This document shows positions 1,253 through 59,555 of a DNA stretch of 64,000 nucleotides, piece after piece. This DNA is from Octopus sinensis (Eukaryota): positions 54,200,464 to 54,264,463 of the forward strand of contig NC_043011.1 of assembly GCF_006345805.1 (NCBI RefSeq). The letters are read 5' to 3'. A program made the translations under genes and the position numbers. The first letter of the stretch is position 1; each line of letters begins with the position of its first letter. The notes below the pieces were generated by a model, which made no database searches, was not told the origin of the DNA, and worked only from the letters and a program-made list of their open reading frames with translations.

Positions 1253-2199
1253 TTTATATTATTATTATTTAAATAAAGAAATATCTAACGTAGTTTGCTA
1301 TTCACTGCTGTATACAACGATAGAAAGACAGAAATATATAACGTAGTAGCAAAGTAACAAAATTATTTCGTTAGTTTTTTTAATAGTTTCGTTTATGAAT
1401 CGTGAGTTAAAATCCAATATACCCGATTAAAACTGCTTCAATTATTTACACCTGGGTTTAATTATTCCCCCACCACCCACCCACCGAAAAGAGATATCTG
1501 ATAATATTGAGGAAATAACGCGAGAATGATCGAAACCTTCTCCAAGTGGAGATTGATCCCTCGTTCGCTGGCTTTTGTGAAATCTAATGGTATTCACTGC
1601 TCCATTCGACTTCCTGCTGTTTATAGAAGGATTAAGTTTAACATATGTATATAATTTATTAGTGTACATAAGTATATAGTCATTGTATGTCTACAACTTA
1701 TGTATACATTCATCCACCCCGCCAAAATGAAATACAGCTCACACACAAAAAAAAAAAATATGTCAGGCGAGTAAACAGTGACGTGAATAAGCAGGACTGG
1801 AGTGAAAAATGTGTGATAAAAGCTGAAAAGGCAAACCAAATTGGAAACTAGGAAACTGATACGACACCAGGCATCTGGCATAATGTTACGACACACACGC
1901 AATCCAATAGTGAAACTAGGAAACAGACGAGCAAAGACGTCTTTTGATTTTATGTAAACAGTGTAATAGCGCTGCCGAGAGTCATTTATTCACGTTAAAC
2001 ACACACTCACAGGCAGTCGTAGATGGACACTCCGGGACACACACACACACACACACACACCACACACACACACACAGAGTCGCCATTTATATTTTCTAAA
2101 TGTCTCTGAATTTCTGTGAAAGGACAGCTGGTGAGCAGGGTCAAAGGTGACGGCACCCGACTAAGGTCCCACTGGAAAAGCTAATATTGCGTCTAATCA

Positions 2200-2432
2200 A
2201 AGGCGACGACTTGGCAGAAACGTTAGCGCGCCGGGCGAAATGCTTGGCGGTATTTCGTCTGTCCTTATGTTCTGAGTTCAAATTCCGCCGAGGTCGACTT
2301 TGCCTTTCATCCTTTCGGGGTCGATTAAATAAGTACCAGTTACGCACAGGGGTCGATATAATCGACTTAATCACCTTGTCTGTCCTTGTTTGTCCCCTCT
2401 ATGTTTAGCCCCTTGTGAGCAATAAAGAAATA
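2200..2432 (+). mobile_element. SINE family A, subfamily with Tx1-like 3' tail
   Basis: aggcgacgacttggcagaaacgttagc head, gagttcaaattcc B box, gtcgactttgcctttcatcctttcggggtcgat central domain, ends tttgtcccctct...aataaagaaata. Confidence 0.9.
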
Positions 2433-2615
2433 AGAATCGTTAGCACGCCGGGCGAAATGCTTAGCGGTATTTCGTCTGTCTTTACGTTCTGAATTCAAAT
2501 TCCGCCGAAGTCGACTTTGTCTTTCATCCTTTCGGTGTCGATAAATTAAGTACCAGTTGCGTACTGCGATCGATGTAAATCATTTCGGGCCTTGTGCCCA
2601 GCGTAGAAAATGATA
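2433..2615 (+). mobile_element. SINE family A, second copy (host of the preceding copy)
   Basis: Begins agaatcgttagc; same B box and central domain; ordinary tail ggccttgtgccca...gtagaaa. Confidence 0.85.
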
Positions 2616-2934
2616 TTGAGTCTAATCACTGATTGGAAACAATGAACAGCCAAACAACAATGTTTCAACTATTGTAAAATGAGTTGTGTGGGTTTCAGGA
2701 TATGTCTGTCTGTCTGTTTGTCTATCTGGAGAGGGAAAGAAACAAGGAATTGATGTATGAACATCCCAAAATACATCAACTTAACTATGAGCTTTATTAA
2801 TAATAGGTCGTACGGTGTTCAATGCTAAGGAGGCAGCTTTTGAGCGAAATTAAATTATGAACTATTTGTGAAAGTTATGTTTTCCTTCTTTCTATCCTGT
2901 GTATGTACACGTATATATAATATATATTATATAT

Positions 2935-7854: not shown

Positions 7855-9475
7855 GGGAAAAGTCAGTTGGCTTGCGGCTCGGCACCTGGAGAAGCAGGCC
7901 CATGCCGTCCAACAGCGTCTCCATCGTGGGACGCTGGACCAACAGACCGGTTAAACTGTCTTTACGTTCTGAGTTCAAATTCTGAGTCTGGTTCGGTCCT
8001 GGCCTTCAAATGGAGAAGAACTGGGGCGAAATAACAACCAATGTGGCCACCTTCACCCAGTAATAGGCCGAGAGGAAGCTATCCCTAAAATGTCGGGCGG
8101 AGGTGGCGAACGCCTACATCGCATCCGTCATCGATTATCGTCTGACCGTCGTGCCTTGTCCCGACCCTACCATCACCAAACTGGAACGTATGCTCTTCTG
8201 AATCTTGTGGAAAGGAAACGTTCCGATGGTTAGGCGATCCATTTGCTGTCAACACCCGCAAAATGGAGGGCTAGGCATGCCGTGGTTGATGATGCGCAGA
8301 CATGCGCTGAGACTGCGACATCTCCGGCGCTTCATAGACGACGGTGAACAGGTGTGGACGCCGTTTGTGCGGCGCGCTTTCCCTCAGCTTGTTTACTTGG
8401 CCGAACTGCAGTCGTGGATCAAACAGTGACCGAGGCTGGGCGAATGGCACCGCGAGTATCGCGTTGCTCTCAAGCAACTCTGCAGTCCGGGACCAAACTT
8501 GTGCGACTTCATTACAACAAAGGCATTCTATAGAGGATTAGTGGAAGGGAGGTGTGACGACGTTCTCGGGCAGAATCTGGACGTCGACAAGAGACACCTG
8601 ACCCACCTGTTCAGGACAACTTTTGGGCCGGGACCTATGGACAATCACCAAAGATCCCTGTCCTGGCAGTGCTATCGAGAAGCATTACCTGTTCAGGATA
8701 AGCTCTACAGGCATGGTTCGAGACACACCGGACCGACTTACCCGAGACGCGGTCAGAGCGACGAAACTGATCTGCACGCACTCGTGCAGTGCCCAACTAT
8801 TTCGGACCTGTGGGCTTATGCCGAACGGCTGCTGTCAAGTGTGGGACGAGTCCGCCTGTCGGCCGAGTCTATTGTGGAAATTGCTCCGCCACCTTCCCTC
8901 AACCGGGAAGGCAAGGCAGTCTTCATCGTACTGGTGGTCATGGTGAAAGAATGTGTGTGGTGGACTCGAGCGAAAGGATTAGAGACAAACACTTACCTCT
9001 CTGACCAATCGCTCATCAACTTTTTCAAGTACCACATGAAAAGGAAGGTGGGAATGGAGAGGTAGGTTTTGTCTCGTAAAAGACTCAAAAAAAGGTAGGT
9101 GAATGTAGCAAAGATGGTGCGTGCGAGTGATGAAACCACTTTGAGCATGATCCTGTAAATCGAAGAGGGAGAGAGTGAGAGCACTTTGCTCTCATGTGTT
9201 TATTCCCTCCCTGCCTGAGGTTACTGTGGTCTTTTTCGTTGGCTTTTCTTTCTACGGATAAACCTAATCTTGCTTTTTACATTTTTAAAACTCTTCTGTG
9301 ATACACGATCCCCTTTTATCGTTTTTTCCCCGATCCCTTCTGATAGGAATTTTACTCTTTTTCTTATTTTCCCCTTATTTTTCTTATTTCATTTTTTGTT
9401 TTCATTTTCGAAAAGTAAAGCTCTACATTTGTATTTGTCCCCTCTGTGTTCAGCCCTGTGTGGCCAATAAAGAAA
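7855..9475 (+). mobile_element. Tx1-clade (L1 group) LINE, 5' truncated, ORF2 C-terminus with stops
   Basis: Translates KSVGLRLGTW...ERKLSLKCRAEVANAYIASVIDY...LWKG...GGLGMP...W.CYREALPV.DKL...(C)PR(C)GQSDETDLHALVQCP; T-rich 3' UTR ending aataaagaaa at 9475. Confidence 0.92.
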
Positions 9476-9493
9476 GTTTTCTGTGTCTATCTG

Positions 9494-54930: not shown

Positions 54931-55316
54931 TAAGTATGCATACGTATGTTATACATGTACATATAACATGACACATACATAGAAACTTGCATACATACAT
55001 ACAGACAGACAGAATATATGCATAACACATTCATGCCAACATACGTATACACACATATACATAATACATTCATACATACATGCATACATATATGCATACA
55101 TACACACATGCAAGCATGCATACGTACATACATACATACATACATACATACATACATACATACATACATACATACGCATATACATGTATTCTCTTCCATG
55201 TTTTTTTAGCATTTCACATATTTCAGTTGTAAACAAACCGACACCGGCAATAAAGTGTTGAAAGACAAATGCACAAAGATGTACATACACATACAGGATT
55301 CCTGTAAGTATGTATT

Positions 55317-55353
<37 letters not shown>

Positions 55354-55354
55354 T

Positions 55355-55703
55355 TATGTATTTATATATGTGTATATATTTACAGTATGTATTTATATAT
55401 GTGTATATATTTACAGTATGTATTTATATATATGTATATATTTACAGTGTGTATTTATATATGTGTATATATTTACAGCATGTATTTATATATGTGTATA
55501 TATTTACAGTATGTATTTATATATGTGTATATATTCACAGTGTGTATTTATATATGTGTATATATTTATAGTATGTATTTATATATGTGTATATATTTAC
55601 AGTGTGTATTTATATATGTGTATATATTTACAGCATGTATTTATATATGTGTATATATTTATAGTATGTATTTATATATGTATATATTTATAGTATGTAT
55701 TTA

Positions 55704-55710
<7 letters not shown>
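55355..55710. repeat. 31 bp minisatellite, about 11 copies
   Basis: Unit tttacagtatgtatttatatatgtgtatata at 55379, 55410, 55441, 55472 and onward. Confidence 0.92.
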
Positions 55711-55769
<59 letters not shown>

Positions 55770-55771
<2 letters not shown>

Positions 55772-56040
55772 TGAGAAAGTTGGTGTGTGAAAGCACGTGG
55801 TTGAATATATAGAAAATAGTAAAAAGTGAAAAAACTACAGAAGGCTTGTTTTAAAAGGTTAAAAATATATATATTTGAGTCATTATGTCTGAAGAATGTA
55901 TAAATTTTTTTCATACAATGACAAAGTTTTTGAAGAAATGACCGGTTTCGCGTTCAGCTTTTCAAATTTCTTACATCGTTATGTTTACGTTGAGAAGTGT
56001 GAAGAGAGTTCCAGATAAGGGGAGGTAATAAGTGATTTCT
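55770..56040 (-). mobile_element. Penelope-like terminal fragment with degenerate minimal hammerhead
   Basis: 55971-55934 reads AGAAAT-ttgaaaa-GC-tgaac-GC-GAAA-CCG-GTC-ATTTCT; abuts (TA)n. Confidence 0.55.
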
Positions 56041-56059
56041 CCCGGTGTAATGAAGAAAA

Positions 56060-57135
56060 CAATATTTTACGTGTTGGAAGTGAGCTTCTCAAGAAGTATT
56101 CTCTTCCTGATGATCTCCCATACAACCCCAAATCAGTCGGGCAAGCTCACCTCAAAAAAGACCTGGAAGTGAAACGCTCATCATACCGAAAAAGGACCAT
56201 GCATGGGTATGTTTCTCGTAGACTTCAAGAAGATAGTAGCATTGGCATAAAGCAAAGCATTTCTAAGACACGTGACTGGTACTTCGCATCACACTTCGAA
56301 GGCTATGCATTTGCAATCCAAGAACAGGAGATTCCTACTAAATACCTGATCAACAAAAGAGACAGTGAAGCCGTTGGAGCTCCATGATGCAACCGAGAAA
56401 TGTAAATTATGTCATATTTCTGTGGAAGACATCCCACATGTGGTTAGCAGCTGCTCCAAAATGCCATCAAGGTATTACCTCCCTTGGGTTCAAATTCCGC
56501 CGAGGTCAACTTTGCCTTTCATCCTTTCGGGGTCGATAAATTAAGTACCAGTTACGCACTGGGGTTGATATAATCGACTTAATCCGTTTGTCTGTCCTTG
56601 TTTGTCCCCTCTGTGTTTAGCCCCTTGTGGGTAGTAAAGAAATAGGTATTACCTCCCTATGCGACATGGCTCTGTTGTAGAAAGAATATACAAGGCCATT
56701 CGGAAAAAAGACTGTCCTGGAATAATTATAAAGACTCGCCCTGTCATTGAATACCAACGCAAATACAACCACAAGGAATGCTGGTGGCACATTCCCATCA
56801 AAACATATGTCCAGTATAATCATAATAGGTCAGATATTGTTGTTTGGGACAGACAAGAAAGGTATGTTCCGTCATAGAGGTCAGCTGTTCTGCTGATGTG
56901 AATATTTTTTTTGAAAATCAAAGACGAAGAAGGTAACTGCTTGGAAACCTCCGGTTTCTCTATCCGGATTACAAGTTTACATTTATACCAATAATAGGCT
57001 TTGTGAGTAAATGCCTTACTGTCAGTCTGGGGAAGCTTGGATTTTCAGAAAAAGAAATGAATCAACAGATTCGCACATTACCAATACAATCTGTAAGCGA
57101 AACGTTTAAAATGTGACTTTGCTTTCGTTATCCGC
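56060..57135 (+). mobile_element. RLE-type (R4/Dong/NeSL-like) LINE 3' region, interrupted by a SINE
   Basis: HGY...SHFEGYAFAIQEQEIPTKYL...CKLCHISVEDIPHVVSSC...RYYLP|MRH...WW...NRSDIVVWDR...VIEVSC. Confidence 0.88.
56485..56643 (+). mobile_element. 5'-truncated SINE A with Tx1-like tail and 15 bp TSD
   Basis: aggtattacctccct at 56470-56484 and 56644-56658; removing the insert restores RYYLPMRH. Confidence 0.95.
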
Positions 57136-57234
57136 ATTCCAAAGACGGAGGTTTGTATATTTGTGAAAAAGCAGGTGCTTCTTATTAGAAAGAATTAAAA
57201 TGACTAAATACAGACGAGACATACATATATATAT

Positions 57235-57405
57235 ATGAGAGGGTGCTAAAAAGTTCCGAGTTCTTTTACAGAGCTTAGAAAATCTGAAGGGCCGCAGCAA
57301 TAAATATGTGAATCTGAGAGAGTAATACGTCGCATAAAATCGTAGCTTCCTGATTCTCCTGTATTTTCTTTTACACAAAGCCAAGAAATTTTCATATCTC
57401 TCCCA
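57235..57405. mobile_element. Degenerate mariner-type MITE
   Basis: tatgagagggtgctaaaaagttcc left end and aagaaattttcatatctctc right end, loosely complementary. Confidence 0.4.
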
Positions 57406-57422
57406 TGTGTATGTTTATATAT

Positions 57423-57468
<46 letters not shown>

Positions 57469-57609
57469 TTTAGGCATATTCAAACCTGTACTCAAATGAG
57501 TGGATCCCAAGCCTAGCCTACCGGGACTACGTTGTTTTATTCCCATAAATTTAGTCCGGCAAAAGTAATAAAACTATTTCCTAAGCTGATTTGAAATCCA
57601 TTTTATTCC

Positions 57610-58026
57610 TTTCTTCTCTAGGTACAAGGCCCGAAATTGTTGGGTAGGGGGCCAGTTGATTAGATCGACCCTAGAACGCAACTGGTACTTAATGAACCCG
57701 AAAGGATTAAAGGCAAAGTCGACCACAGCGGAATTTGAACTCAGACAGACGAAATACCTATTTCTTTACTACCCACAAGGGGCTAAATAGAGAGAGGACA
57801 AACAAGGACAGACAAACAGATTAAGTCGATTATATCGACCCCAGTGCGTAACTGGTACTTATTTAATCGACCCCGAAAGGATGAAAGGCAAAGTCGACCT
57901 CGGCGGAATTTGAACTCAGAACGTAACGGCAGACGAAATACCACTAAGCATTTCACCCAGAGTTCTAACGTTTCTGCCAGCTCGCCGCCAGACGAAATAC
58001 CGCTAAGTATTTCGTCCGGCGTGCCC
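57610..58026 (-). mobile_element. Nested SINE A: Tx1-tailed copy (57759-57988) inside an ordinary-tailed copy
   Basis: TSD cagacgaaatacc at 57746-57758 and 57989-58001; outer halves rejoin into one SINE. Confidence 0.92.
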
Positions 58027-58543
58027 CTGAAATCCATTTTATTACAAAGGCAATGTCTAAGGAATGTACCAAAATGTTAGTATAGGCTTGAAATCGAAAG
58101 ATGCATCGCTTCGATAAGCCATGGCTTTTATAACACTGATCGCCTCATTTTTGCGATAACATCCCACAATTCCATAGTTCTCATTCAACCGACATCTTGT
58201 CACCTCAGCACAAATCTACATTCAGGCGATATTGTAAGATTTAGTGTCCAAGCGGTAACATCTAAACATCCATCCATCCATCCATCCATCTAACCATCCA
58301 TCTCATTCGGTCTGTACATGTGTGCTTATGTCTGTTTCTTTCTCTCTATTATATGTATATATTTGTGTGTATACACGTCTGTATGTATTTATGTATGTAT
58401 GCATGCATGTATATGTGTATGTATGTACGTAAATGTATGCACACCAACACACGTGTATGTGCGAGTGTATAAAAGCCACAATCTGAGACAAATCAGCACA
58501 TCATACAAAATCACGTCTATTTCTTAGGATGTGTGTGTGTGTA

Positions 58544-58576
<33 letters not shown>

Positions 58577-59555
58577 ATTATATATATATATATATATACA
58601 CAGAAAGAGAGCCAGCGAGAGAGAGAGAGAGAGAGACATAAATGTAGAAGTATATAACATATGTGGAGGAATACACACACACACATACACACACACACAC
58701 ACATATATATATATATTTACATGCATGTCTGTACGTACATATGTATATATAACTAAGTATACATATATAATATACAATATATACATATGTGTGTGTGTAT
58801 ATATATATATGTATGTATGTACGTATATATATGTGTGTGTCTATATATATACATATATATATCTATATATGTATTTATATATACATATATATCTATATAT
58901 GCGTATATATATATACATATATATATCTATATATGTATATATATATCTATATAGGTGTACATATGTATATATGTTTATGTATTATATAAGTCATGTATTT
59001 ATAAAAGTAGAAACATTGCTAAAGAGATCGATAAAATAATCAGAACATTTTCGGAATACATGGAAAAATAAATAAAAAAAACTAAACTCAAAAAATGCAA
59101 AAAGGAAAAAAAATACTCCTCCAAAAAACAGCACACCAACAACATAGTAAACACGTAACAAACAAAAACATCATCAATGAAACTAAATATAAAGCGACTG
59201 AAGACGTAGAAGTGAAAAATGTGCAACTCTATGGCGTATTTGTGGTGCCAGGGAATAACTGCCATTGCTAGTGAAAATAAATGAGTGAATCATTGGGAAA
59301 CAAGATGTCTGCTTTATAACTTGCAAAAGCAGACGACAGACAACCCAGAAAGAAATTTGCATAGATTATTATTGGAGTTATTTTTGTTAATCTGGCAGGC
59401 AGCGTCGTACAGAAATAAAGTAAAAGTGAGAAGAAAATAAAACAAATTGAATAAAAATGTGAGATATGGGAGATTATATATTATATATTATATATATATT
59501 ATATATATATATATATACATACACATAATATGTGCATTATATATAACACATTTGT

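What the first reader, a model, noticed from the sequence alone, without database searches (positions are those of the whole stretch)
57610..58026. Tx1-tailed SINE inserted into the head of its own family, with the same GGTATT junction as an independent insertion
Seen: a near-full SINE (57759-57988) sits inside another SINE A with a 13 bp TSD (ggtatttcgtctg in element orientation). The independent insertion at 56485-56643 has the same tail variant (gtagtaaagaaata) and its TSD also runs into GGTATT. Inference: the endonuclease targets GGTATT, which lies between the A and B boxes of the SINE itself, so the element parasitises its own relatives. That is both a safe harbour and a way to disrupt competing Pol III promoters.
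Basis: partly seen in the sequence, partly recalled or inferred. Interest (0 to 1): 0.75.

Follow-up and report, generated by a model that had tools for sequence, protein, structure and literature searches.

The report
A SINE homing into SINE heads
A 230-base SINE copy sits inside the head of an older related SINE with a 13-base target duplication, and about half of this subfamily's roughly 83,000 copies abut the same GGTATT site in SINE heads, which likely reflects site-preferring integration in which new copies would take over resident promoters and pile up as tandem arrays.

Summary
Window 57759-57988 (-) is a near-full-length SINE ("B", tail ...GGGTAGTAAAGAAATA). It lies inside an older SINE ("A", 57608-58027) between two copies of GGTATTTCGTCTG, and the composite has its own 16-bp duplication. 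A second B copy (56485-56643) has a 15-bp duplication, AGGTATTACCTCCCT.

Genome-wide this is far from chance. In an unbiased sample, 50-53 of 98 exact B tails are followed by a SINE head exactly at GGTATTTCG. Insertions in ordinary DNA have 9-17-bp duplications that start right after the tail, mostly with GGTA or TATA. Heads reading CGTATT are almost never hit.

The nested form with its own head is the rare outcome (185 exact hits). The common outcome (over 30,000) is a head-less unit joined tail-to-GGTATT, giving arrays of one head followed by repeated units.

The B tail is 82% identical over 44 nt to the 3' end of an APE-RT-zf-RVT LINE in the window. That LINE sits in (TATC)n microsatellites. 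Tx1 clade membership could not be tested.

Verdict: a target-preferring SINE whose hot spot lies in box A of its own family. How the arrays form is inferred. This is a new variant of a known kind.

The parts
57592..57607 (.). 3'-side copy (in element orientation) of the 16-bp target duplication of the outer SINE A
   Evidence: D16: perfect repeat TGAAATCCATTTTATT, also at 58028-58043.
57608..57745 (-). Outer SINE A: body with B-box-like GAGTTCAAATTCC and A-type tail (...TTTCGGGCCTTGTACCTAGAGAAGAAAGG). It lacks 9 nt directly after the 13-mer.
   Evidence: D9 and D10: 81-92% identical to the inner element's body.
57746..57758 (-). 3' copy of the 13-bp target duplication GGTATTTCGTCTG, directly after the inner tail
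   Evidence: D14.
57759..57988 (-). Inner SINE B, 230 bp, near full length. It has its own head (with its own GGTATTTCGTCTG at 57930-57942), body, and tail ...GGGTAGTAAAGAAATA. It contains no TTTT run.
   Evidence: Same architecture in 9 of 12 fetched nested loci.
57989..58001 (-). 5' copy of the 13-bp target duplication, part of the outer head
   Evidence: D14.
58002..58027 (-). Remaining 5'-truncated head of the outer SINE A (GGGGCACGCCGGACGAAATACTTAGC)
58028..58043 (.). 5'-side copy of the outer 16-bp target duplication
   Evidence: D16.
56485..56643 (+). Independent 5'-truncated SINE B copy (starts in the B-box region) with the same tail
   Evidence: I1 (94% over 171 nt).
56470..56484 (+). 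5' copy of its 15-bp duplication AGGTATTACCTCCCT (3' copy at 56644-56658)
   Evidence: D19.
2200..2615 (+). Head-to-tail dimer: SINE B with the older tail variant (2200-2432) joined to a SINE A (2433-2615) at the head site AGAATCGTTAGC. One 12-bp duplication with 1 mismatch flanks the pair (2188-2199 and 2616-2627).
   Evidence: The same junction class is seen.
8430..9476 (+). 3' part of an APE-RT-zf-RVT LINE (ORF2 C-terminus 8430-9065, 3' UTR to 9476). Its last 44 nt are 82% identical to the SINE B tail.

Best explanation
The inner element is a SINE B copy inserted by target-primed reverse transcription into the head of a resident SINE A, with a 13-bp target duplication. The machinery that moves SINE B likely prefers first-strand nicks just 5' of GGTA, and above all the GGTATTTCG motif at the 3' edge of box A in SINE heads.

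Shown:
- Duplications start immediately after the tail and begin with GGTA or TATA.
- In nested copies the first junction is fixed at GGTATT while the second varies.
- About half of all B tails abut a SINE head at this base.
- The junction needs GG.

Inferred:
- When the target is a SINE head, the new cDNA is homologous to the DNA just upstream of the nick. Its 5' end is therefore usually resolved by homology rather than by a staggered second cut.
- The incoming unit then inherits the resident head (the promoter), and the resident body becomes a head-less unit downstream.
- Repeated hits on the head-proximal GGTATT would build arrays of one head followed by repeated units, youngest unit at the 5' end.
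- The window shows the rare classical outcome, with its own head plus a duplication.

Unresolved: whether the preference comes from the partner LINE's endonuclease or from pairing between read-through SINE RNA and the nicked target.
For: 1. Anatomy in the window.

2. Counts in the whole genome:
- Exact tails: 31,226 + 52,146 = 83,372. This includes some satellite hits.
- Tail + GGTATT: 30,738, with 0 in the reversed-pattern control.
- Tail + CGTATTTCGTC: 203, although 16,956 heads read ...GCGTAGCCGTATTTCGTC.

3. Unbiased sample, all 98 exact tails in G000:C1:1-9.22 Mb:
- 50 are followed by a SINE head at GGTATT (34 loci), 11 by TA repeats and 37 by other sequence. Three of the 37 are heads with indels.
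- At least 21 of the 100 exact GGTATTTCGTCTG motifs listed for C1:1-8.83 Mb are preceded by an exact tail.

4. Of 54 flanks not flagged as heads, 33 had a repeat of 8 nt or more. 17 non-repeat insertions had 9-17-bp duplications starting at the first base after the tail (GGTAAG.., GGTAGT.., GGTATT.., GATA.., TATA..), around elements of 172-237 nt, 16 of them over 200 nt. Among 50 such flanks GGTA occurred 15 times against 0.12 expected, and TATA 15 times against 1.51.

5. Classical nested copies: 185 exact 5' junctions at varying positions. In 9 of 12 fetched loci by script (a tenth by eye), a 231-239-nt inner copy has GGTATTTC... at both junctions.

6. GG dependence in the sample:
- Tail-preceded units read GG in 88 of 98 and CG in 1 of 98.
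- Head-attached units read CG in 30 of 63 solitary copies and in 15 of 53 first units of arrays.

7. Order of events:
- 14 of 48 junctions have an A-type unit downstream.
- A units are about twice as diverged as B units: pairwise identity 0.80-0.81 against 0.89-0.91.
- In 32 B-B arrays the head-attached unit is closer to solitary B copies than the last unit in 22, further in 7 and tied in 3 (Wilcoxon p = 0.002). In the unbiased subset of 15 the split is 11 against 3 (p = 0.03).

8. LINE link:
- The tail and the LINE 3' end share 36 of 44 nt.
- The LINE ORF2 has Exo_endo_phos, RVT_1 and zf-RVT domains.
- LINE copies are target-associated: (TATC)n lies on both sides, and tandem copies occur.
- Target preference co-varies with tail variant. 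GGTAG tails are followed by GGTA in 99 of 162. GGCAA, GGCAG and AGCAA tails are followed by AGAA in 11 of 23 and by GGTA in 1 of 23.
Against: - GGTA alone does not define the hot spot. The tail's own GGTAGT yields only 10 tail duplications genome-wide. The antisense GGTAC site present in every SINE body was hit once in 98 (L078). Either a longer motif is recognised or RNA-target homology is needed, and neither was shown.
- No LINE with the exact B tail, and no LINE sitting at GGTATT, was found. The related LINE lies in (TATC)n repeats.
- Some arrays have near-identical neighbouring units (L070 0.988, L111 0.97-0.99, L133 up to 0.976). Some 65-bp head stacks are not matched by bodies (L168, L169). 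Local duplication therefore contributes.
- The test of whether heads of B..A composites are resident-derived was inconclusive: 0.823 against 0.852, p = 0.12, n = 11.
- An outer duplication was detected for only 11 of 24 arrays.
- CG-type heads belong to a young subfamily, so their low occupancy is partly a matter of age.
- Homology-mediated 5' resolution is inferred from the structures, not observed.
Confidence: 0.62

Rival explanations
1. One-shot chimeras. During a single integration the reverse transcriptase copies one SINE RNA up to GGUA in its head, then jumps to the 3' end of another SINE RNA. Multi-unit head-less arrays would then be born at once rather than by successive insertions into resident heads.
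For: - Junctions are precise and head-less, with one head per array.
- The cDNA end after copying GGUA (...TACC-3') is the same as the preferred genomic primer inferred from duplications that start with GGTA.
- The window dimer at 2200-2615 and similar AGAAACG junctions share a single outer duplication.
- Template jumping by LINE reverse transcriptases is established knowledge (recalled).
Against: - The downstream A-type units belong to a family about twice as diverged as B.
- The head-attached unit is on average younger than the last unit: 22 against 7, p = 0.002.
- CG-type first units are less frequent in arrays (15 of 53) than among solitary copies (30 of 63). This model predicts the opposite, because a CG RNA cannot jump again.
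- Classical nested copies with variable duplications prove that genomic heads are nicked at this base.
Confidence: 0.2
2. Satellite-like growth. A few initial dimers were amplified locally by unequal crossing-over or replication slippage, so most tail-GGTATT junctions are copies of junctions rather than integration events.
For: - Arrays with near-identical units and higher-order patterns: L133 has 10 units, and L111 and L070 reach 0.97-0.99 identity.
- 65-bp head stacks (L168, L169).
- Tandem-like SINE arrays attributed to recombination are described in bivalves (PMC11481361, passages read).
Against: - The 50 junctions of the unbiased sample lie in 34 separate loci.
- Of 62 chains with at least 2 units, 44 have only 2 units.
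- Median identity of adjacent units (0.873) is close to that of random pairs (0.847).
- 14 of 48 junctions join B to A.
- Duplication would copy CG junctions as readily as GG junctions, yet CG occurs in 1 of 98.
Confidence: 0.1
3. Ordinary nesting. SINE heads are hit only because they are abundant and contain a generic GGTA, with no special affinity.
For: The classical nested form is rare: 185 exact hits. My rough estimate is that this is about what a generic per-GGTA rate would give. Non-SINE GGTA events are 11 of 98 tails, spread over about 4,750 GGTA sites per Mb.
Against: - At least 21% of intact head motifs carry a tail. For generic GGTA sites the figure is about 0.03%: 11 events over about 43,800 sites, my arithmetic.
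- The antisense SINE GGTAC site and the tail GGTAGT site are nearly unused.
Confidence: 0.05

Closest known systems
SINEU-3 with Tx1-Mar LINEs in crocodilians (Kojima 2015, PMC4494074; abstract fragment and passages read)
   Same: A SINE with strong target preference inherited from a target-specific LINE partner. The target is another repeated element. Duplications have a constant sequence start, and tandem copies are seen.
   Different: - Here the hot spot lies in the SINE family's own head, not in a DNA transposon.
- The tandem units are head-less and do not sandwich a duplication.
- The only related LINE found uses (TATC)n, not the SINE's site.
- A partner sharing the target was not found.
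Microsatellite-specific Tx1-clade LINEs: Kibi (TC)n, Koshi (TTC)n and crocodilian (TTCC)n/(TTTC)n families, as summarised in PMC4494074 (passages read)
   Same: The LINE in this window has an APE-RT ORF2, lies between (TATC)n tracts and forms tandem copies separated by the repeat.
   Different: The repeat unit is different. Tx1 clade membership was not tested, because no reference sequences were on hand and the protein searches returned no named Tx1 hits.
Tandem-like SINE arrays TSD1-(SINE)n-TSD1 in the clam S. broughtonii (PMC11481361, passages read)
   Same: The first unit has a complete head, the inner units are truncated in the head, and one duplication flanks the array.
   Different: - There about 3% of copies are involved, tails are also truncated, and recombination is proposed.
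- Here about half of the copies are involved and every unit keeps a complete tail.
- Here the junction coincides with the start of the integration duplication seen in unique DNA.
Homology- or microhomology-mediated 5' end joining of LINE-1 and Alu cDNA, including Alu retrotransposition-mediated deletion (recalled, not read here)
   Same: The nascent cDNA pairs with homologous resident DNA to finish integration.
   Different: In this case it would be the main pathway and would add units rather than delete DNA. It is inferred only.

Membership tests
SINE (LINE-dependent, Pol III type) | Short, non-coding, very high copy number | tested here: met
   230 nt. 83,372 exact tails in the genome.
SINE (LINE-dependent, Pol III type) | Target-site duplications of variable sequence | tested here: met
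   17 insertions with 9-17-bp duplications. In the window: 13, 15 and 16 bp.
SINE (LINE-dependent, Pol III type) | 3' tail shared with a LINE | tested here: met
   36 of 44 nt identical to the 3' end of the LINE at window 8430-9476. No LINE with an identical tail was found.
SINE (LINE-dependent, Pol III type) | tRNA-derived head with box A and box B | tested here: inconclusive
   Box-like motifs TAGCGGTA and GAGTTCAAATTCC were seen by eye. ARAGORN found no tRNA. Rfam at E<=1 gave no tRNA hit in 55000-59500.
Tx1 clade of non-LTR retrotransposons (as partner) | ORF2 with an APE endonuclease and a reverse transcriptase | tested here: met
   L164 ORF2, 1159 aa: Exo_endo_phos 1.4e-12, RVT_1 1.2e-31, zf-RVT 9.6e-8. 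This architecture is shared with L1.
Tx1 clade of non-LTR retrotransposons (as partner) | Placement of the reverse transcriptase inside the Tx1 clade by phylogeny | not testable with these tools
   No Tx1 or L1 reference sequences were available. The homologue lists carry no Tx1 names. The nearest named hit is a hypothetical protein of an octopod, at 67% identity.
Tx1 clade of non-LTR retrotransposons (as partner) | Sequence-specific insertion | tested here: met
   (TATC)n-type repeats follow the 3' end in 11 of 11 copies and in 12 of 13 readable further copies. They lie on both sides of full-length copies.
Target-specific SINE (SINEU-3 type) | More than 20% of flanks belong to one sequence type (criterion quoted in PMC4494074) | tested here: met
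   50-53 of 98 flanks are SINE heads at one base.
Target-specific SINE (SINEU-3 type) | The partner LINE shows the same target | tested here: not met
   All sampled LINE copies lie in (TATC)n repeats and none at GGTATT. The true partner may not have been sampled, or may be extinct.
SINE-derived satellite | Neighbouring units more alike than random units, in long homogeneous arrays | tested here: inconclusive
   True for a few arrays (L070, L111, L133). Overall the medians are 0.873 against 0.847, and 44 of 62 chains have only 2 units.

The most novel reading that the evidence does not exclude
A SINE subfamily has turned its own family's promoter into its landing pad. Integration is aimed at the GG of box A in resident SINE heads. 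The incoming copy captures the resident head and decapitates the resident body. This has happened tens of thousands of times and has built head-less arrays. The youngest subfamily carries a GG-to-CG head variant that is almost never hit, that is, a target-site-resistant master selected by self-homing.
Probability: 0.4. Interest if true: 0.8.

Novelty: new variant of a known kind. Interest (0 to 1): 0.6.

Why it matters
Target-specific SINEs are rare, and the known ones aim at other repeats. A SINE whose hot spot is inside its own Pol III promoter would link three things usually treated apart:
- integration-site choice;
- competition between SINE subfamilies, through head capture and a resistant CGTATT head variant;
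- the birth of tandem arrays from dispersed repeats.

It would also explain a sizeable part of SINE organisation in a cephalopod-type genome, where SINEs are reported at about 11.6% of the Octopus vulgaris genome (PMC13282606, passage read).

It gives a clean assay substrate: a GGTATTTCG head against a CGTATTTCG head. That would help separate endonuclease specificity from RNA-target pairing in target-primed reverse transcription.

Tried and rejected
- Rfam scan of 55000-59500: only low-complexity microRNA noise. ARAGORN: nothing.
- Three pattern searches for a LINE with the exact SINE B tail (inspected) returned only SINE deletion variants and 5'-truncated SINE copies.
- Naming the LINE clade through homologue names returned no informative names.
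- Single dimeric master: rejected, because 5' junction positions differ between loci.
- GGTATT as part of the element rather than the target: rejected, because the 5' copies of the duplications contain it.
- Head-age test for B..A composites: inconclusive.
- Earlier-findings look-ups: empty.
- Literature searches found no description of this self-targeting in octopus SINEs within the held library. The 1994 description of octopus SINEs is recalled only and was not read. Supplements of PMC4494074 and PMC13282606 were not opened and may hold relevant family notes.
- My first alignment used wrong coordinates and was redone.

Full report
**1. What is in the window**

Read on the minus strand, 58043-57592 has this order:
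- a 16-bp repeat, AATAAAATGGATTTCA;
- a 5'-truncated SINE head ending in GGTATTTCGTCTG;
- a 230-nt SINE ("B") with its own head, its own GGTATTTCGTCTG, a B-box-like GAGTTCAAATTCC, a body, and the tail ...CCCCTTGTGGGTAGTAAAGAAATA;
- GGTATTTCGTCTG again;
- the body and a different tail (...TTTCGGGCCTTGTACC...) of the outer SINE ("A");
- the 16-bp repeat again.

The 13-mer copies and both flanking repeats are perfect (D14, D16). This is the signature of a target-primed insertion of B into a resident A that had its own earlier insertion.

A second B copy, 5'-truncated, at 56485-56643 (+), has a perfect 15-bp duplication, AGGTATTACCTCCCT (D19). Two refinements: the GG lies at the 3' edge of the box-A-like motif, and the outer copy lacks 9 nt just after the duplication.

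**2. Is the shared GGTATT chance?**

No. Genome-wide counts:
- Exact 14-nt tail: 31,226 + 52,146 = 83,372. This includes an unrelated 53-bp satellite.
- Tail followed by GGTATT: 30,738, with no hits to the reversed control.

I fetched every exact tail in the first 9.22 Mb of contig C1, 98 in all. Of these:
- 50 are followed by a SINE head starting exactly at GGTATTTCG, in 34 loci;
- 11 are followed by TA repeats;
- 37 are followed by other sequence. By eye, three of the 37 are heads with indels, and 13 of the 37 begin with GGTA.

**3. Is the motif in the target or in the element?**

It is in the target. Of 54 flanks not flagged as heads, 33 had a repeat of 8 nt or more. 17 insertions in non-repeat DNA have 9-17-bp direct repeats whose 3' copy begins at the first base after ...AAAGAAATA and whose 5' copy precedes the SINE's 5' end. 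Examples are GGTAAGTAGCTTGCTAA, GGTAGTACAAATGTAC, GGTATTAGGTTA, GATAATTTCAGTAGGC and TATATAGCATATCTG. The elements are 172-237 nt, 16 of them over 200 nt.

Among 50 such flanks, GGTA occurs 15 times against 0.12 expected from the window's 4-mer content, and TATA 15 times against 1.51. Positions 3 and 4 are T and A in 42 and 40 of 50. The first nick is therefore placed just 5' of (G/T)(G/A)TA.

**4. Nested copies like the window's are independent events but rare**

The 5' junction (GTATTTCGTC, up to 12 nt, then the SINE 5' end) occurs 185 times. Its positions vary, implying duplications of about 10-18 bp. Only one listed locus has the window's exact junction.

In 9 of 12 fetched loci (a tenth by eye), a 231-239-nt inner copy has GGTATTTC... 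at both junctions. This rules out one dimeric master element.

**5. The common product is different**

Most tail-GGTATT junctions belong to arrays with one head followed by two or more units. Each unit runs from GGTATT to a complete tail, about 184 bp apart. Of 62 chains with at least 2 units, 44 have 2 units and one has 10.

At least 21 of the 100 exact GGTATTTCGTCTG motifs listed for C1:1-8.83 Mb are preceded by an exact tail. Generic GGTA sites are occupied at roughly 0.03%: 11 events over about 43,800 sites, my arithmetic.

**6. Dependence on GG**

In the sample:
- Tail-preceded units read GG in 88 of 98 and CG in 1 of 98.
- Head-attached B units read CGTATT in 30 of 63 solitary copies and in 15 of 53 first units of arrays.

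Genome-wide, tail + CGTATTTCGTC occurs 203 times, against 16,956 heads of the CG type. A junction made irrespective of sequence, by unequal crossing-over or by a jump at a fixed position, would not show this. Age is a confounder, because the CG type belongs to a young subfamily.

**7. Order of events**

- 14 of 48 junctions have an A-type unit downstream.
- A units are about twice as diverged as B units: mean pairwise identity 0.80-0.81 against 0.89-0.91.
- In 32 B-B arrays, the head-attached unit is closer to a panel of solitary B copies than the last unit in 22, further in 7 and tied in 3 (Wilcoxon p = 0.002). In the unbiased subset of 15 the split is 11 against 3 (p = 0.03).

This fits new units being added at the head side of older residents. 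It does not fit arrays born in one event.

**8. Proposed mechanism**

Shown: a nick 5' of GGTA, reverse transcription from the tail, and either a staggered second cut (the classical nested copy) or a head-less join.

Inferred: at a SINE head the cDNA becomes homologous to the DNA just upstream of the nick as soon as it passes its own GGTATT and head. The 5' end is therefore usually resolved by homology. The new unit inherits the resident head and the resident body is left head-less.

The window copy has no TTTT run. 55 of 193 B units and 4 of 140 heads in the sample contain one. Transcripts from such heads would therefore often read through into the next unit.

**9. What does not fit**

- GGTA alone is not enough. 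The tail's own GGTAGT gives only 10 short tail duplications genome-wide.
- The antisense GGTAC site in every SINE body was used once in 98.
- Either the recognised motif is longer, or pairing between read-through RNA (...AAAUA-GGUAUUUCG...) and the nicked head selects the site. I could not separate these.
- Some arrays are clearly amplified locally (L070, L111, L133).
- Some 65-bp head stacks lack matching bodies (L168, L169), whereas L171 has three heads and three bodies.
- The head-age test was inconclusive.
- Outer duplications were found for 11 of 24 arrays.

**10. The LINE link**

Window 8430-9065 encodes the C-terminus of an ORF2, with a weak zf-RVT match (E = 0.006). The 3' UTR ends at 9476 with ...TTTGTCCCCTCTGTGTTCAGCCCTGTGTGGCCAATAAAGAAAG. 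This is 36 of 44 nt identical to the B tail.

The family is abundant: the first look gave 28,539 candidates, of which 150 were scored. Open frames reach 1159-1200 aa. A full copy (L164) has an ORF2 with Exo_endo_phos, RVT_1 and zf-RVT domains, and an ORF1 with a weak CCHC knuckle below the curated cut-off.

Its 3' end is followed by (TATC)n-type repeats in 11 of 11 copies and in 12 of 13 readable further copies. Full-length copies of about 6.4 kb at 98% identity have the repeat on both sides and occur in tandem. This resembles the microsatellite-specific Tx1 families summarised in PMC4494074, but clade membership was not testable.

No LINE with the exact B tail was found.

Tail variant and target co-vary:
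- GGTAG tails are followed by GGTA in 99 of 162.
- GGCAA, GGCAG and AGCAA tails are followed by AGAA in 11 of 23 and by GGTA in 1 of 23. These include the head site AGAAACGTTAGC, as in the window dimer at 2200-2615.

This suggests that partners, or masters, differ in their preferences.

**11. Comparison with what is known**

- Target-specific SINEs moved by Tx1-type LINEs are known: SINEU-3 with Tx1-Mar, where tandem copies sandwich a duplication (PMC4494074).
- Arrays with a complete first head and head-truncated inner units are described in a clam, at about 3% of copies (PMC11481361).

New here are three things: a hot spot inside the family's own head, the scale (about half of an 83,000-copy subfamily), and a head variant that escapes.

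My searches found no report of this for octopus SINEs in the held library. Older subscription papers and supplements were not seen.

Noticed in passing
window 2188-2627: Head-to-tail dimer of a SINE B with the older tail GAGCAATAAAGAAATA and a SINE A. They are joined at the head site AGAATCGTTAGC, and one 12-bp duplication with 1 mismatch flanks the pair. This is a second recurrent junction class, tail followed by AGAAACGTTAGC.
   Followed up: partly
G000 loci; Older tail variants (GGCAA, GGCAG, AGCAA) are followed by AGAA-starting duplications in 11 of 23 (for example AGAAATACAAGTAG, AGAAATCCTTAAT). The GGTAG variant is followed by GGTA in 99 of 162. Target preference tracks the tail variant.
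   Followed up: partly
window 8430-9476; L164-L167, L142-L152, L191-L203: An abundant, young-looking APE-RT-zf-RVT LINE family (copies of about 6.4 kb at 98% identity, ORF2 1159 aa). It is embedded in (TATC)n microsatellites and often occurs in tandem, about 6.2-6.4 kb apart.
   Followed up: partly
L168 (G000:C1:195358300-195360300), L169 (G000:C7:15322100-15324100): Tandem stacks of six 65-66-bp units (SINE head plus GGTATTTCG) followed by only one or two bodies. L171 has three heads and three bodies.
   Followed up: partly
G000:C1:13006812-13008060: A 53-bp satellite whose unit contains GTAGTAAAGAAATATAATATTAAC. It inflates raw tail counts slightly.
   Followed up: no
window 57742-57758: The outer SINE A lacks 9 nt (TCTTTACGT-like) directly after the 3' copy of the duplication, between two TCTG repeats. 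A similar short form is seen at G000:C1:12622210.
   Followed up: no
window 56300-57100: The 56485 copy interrupts what reads like a degraded retroelement open reading frame with a Cys/His-rich stretch. It was not classified.
   Followed up: no
genome-wide; A large B subfamily has the head variant ...GCGTAGCCGTATTTCG (16,956 exact copies) in place of ...GCTTAGCGGTATTTCG. It is almost never preceded by a tail.
   Followed up: partly
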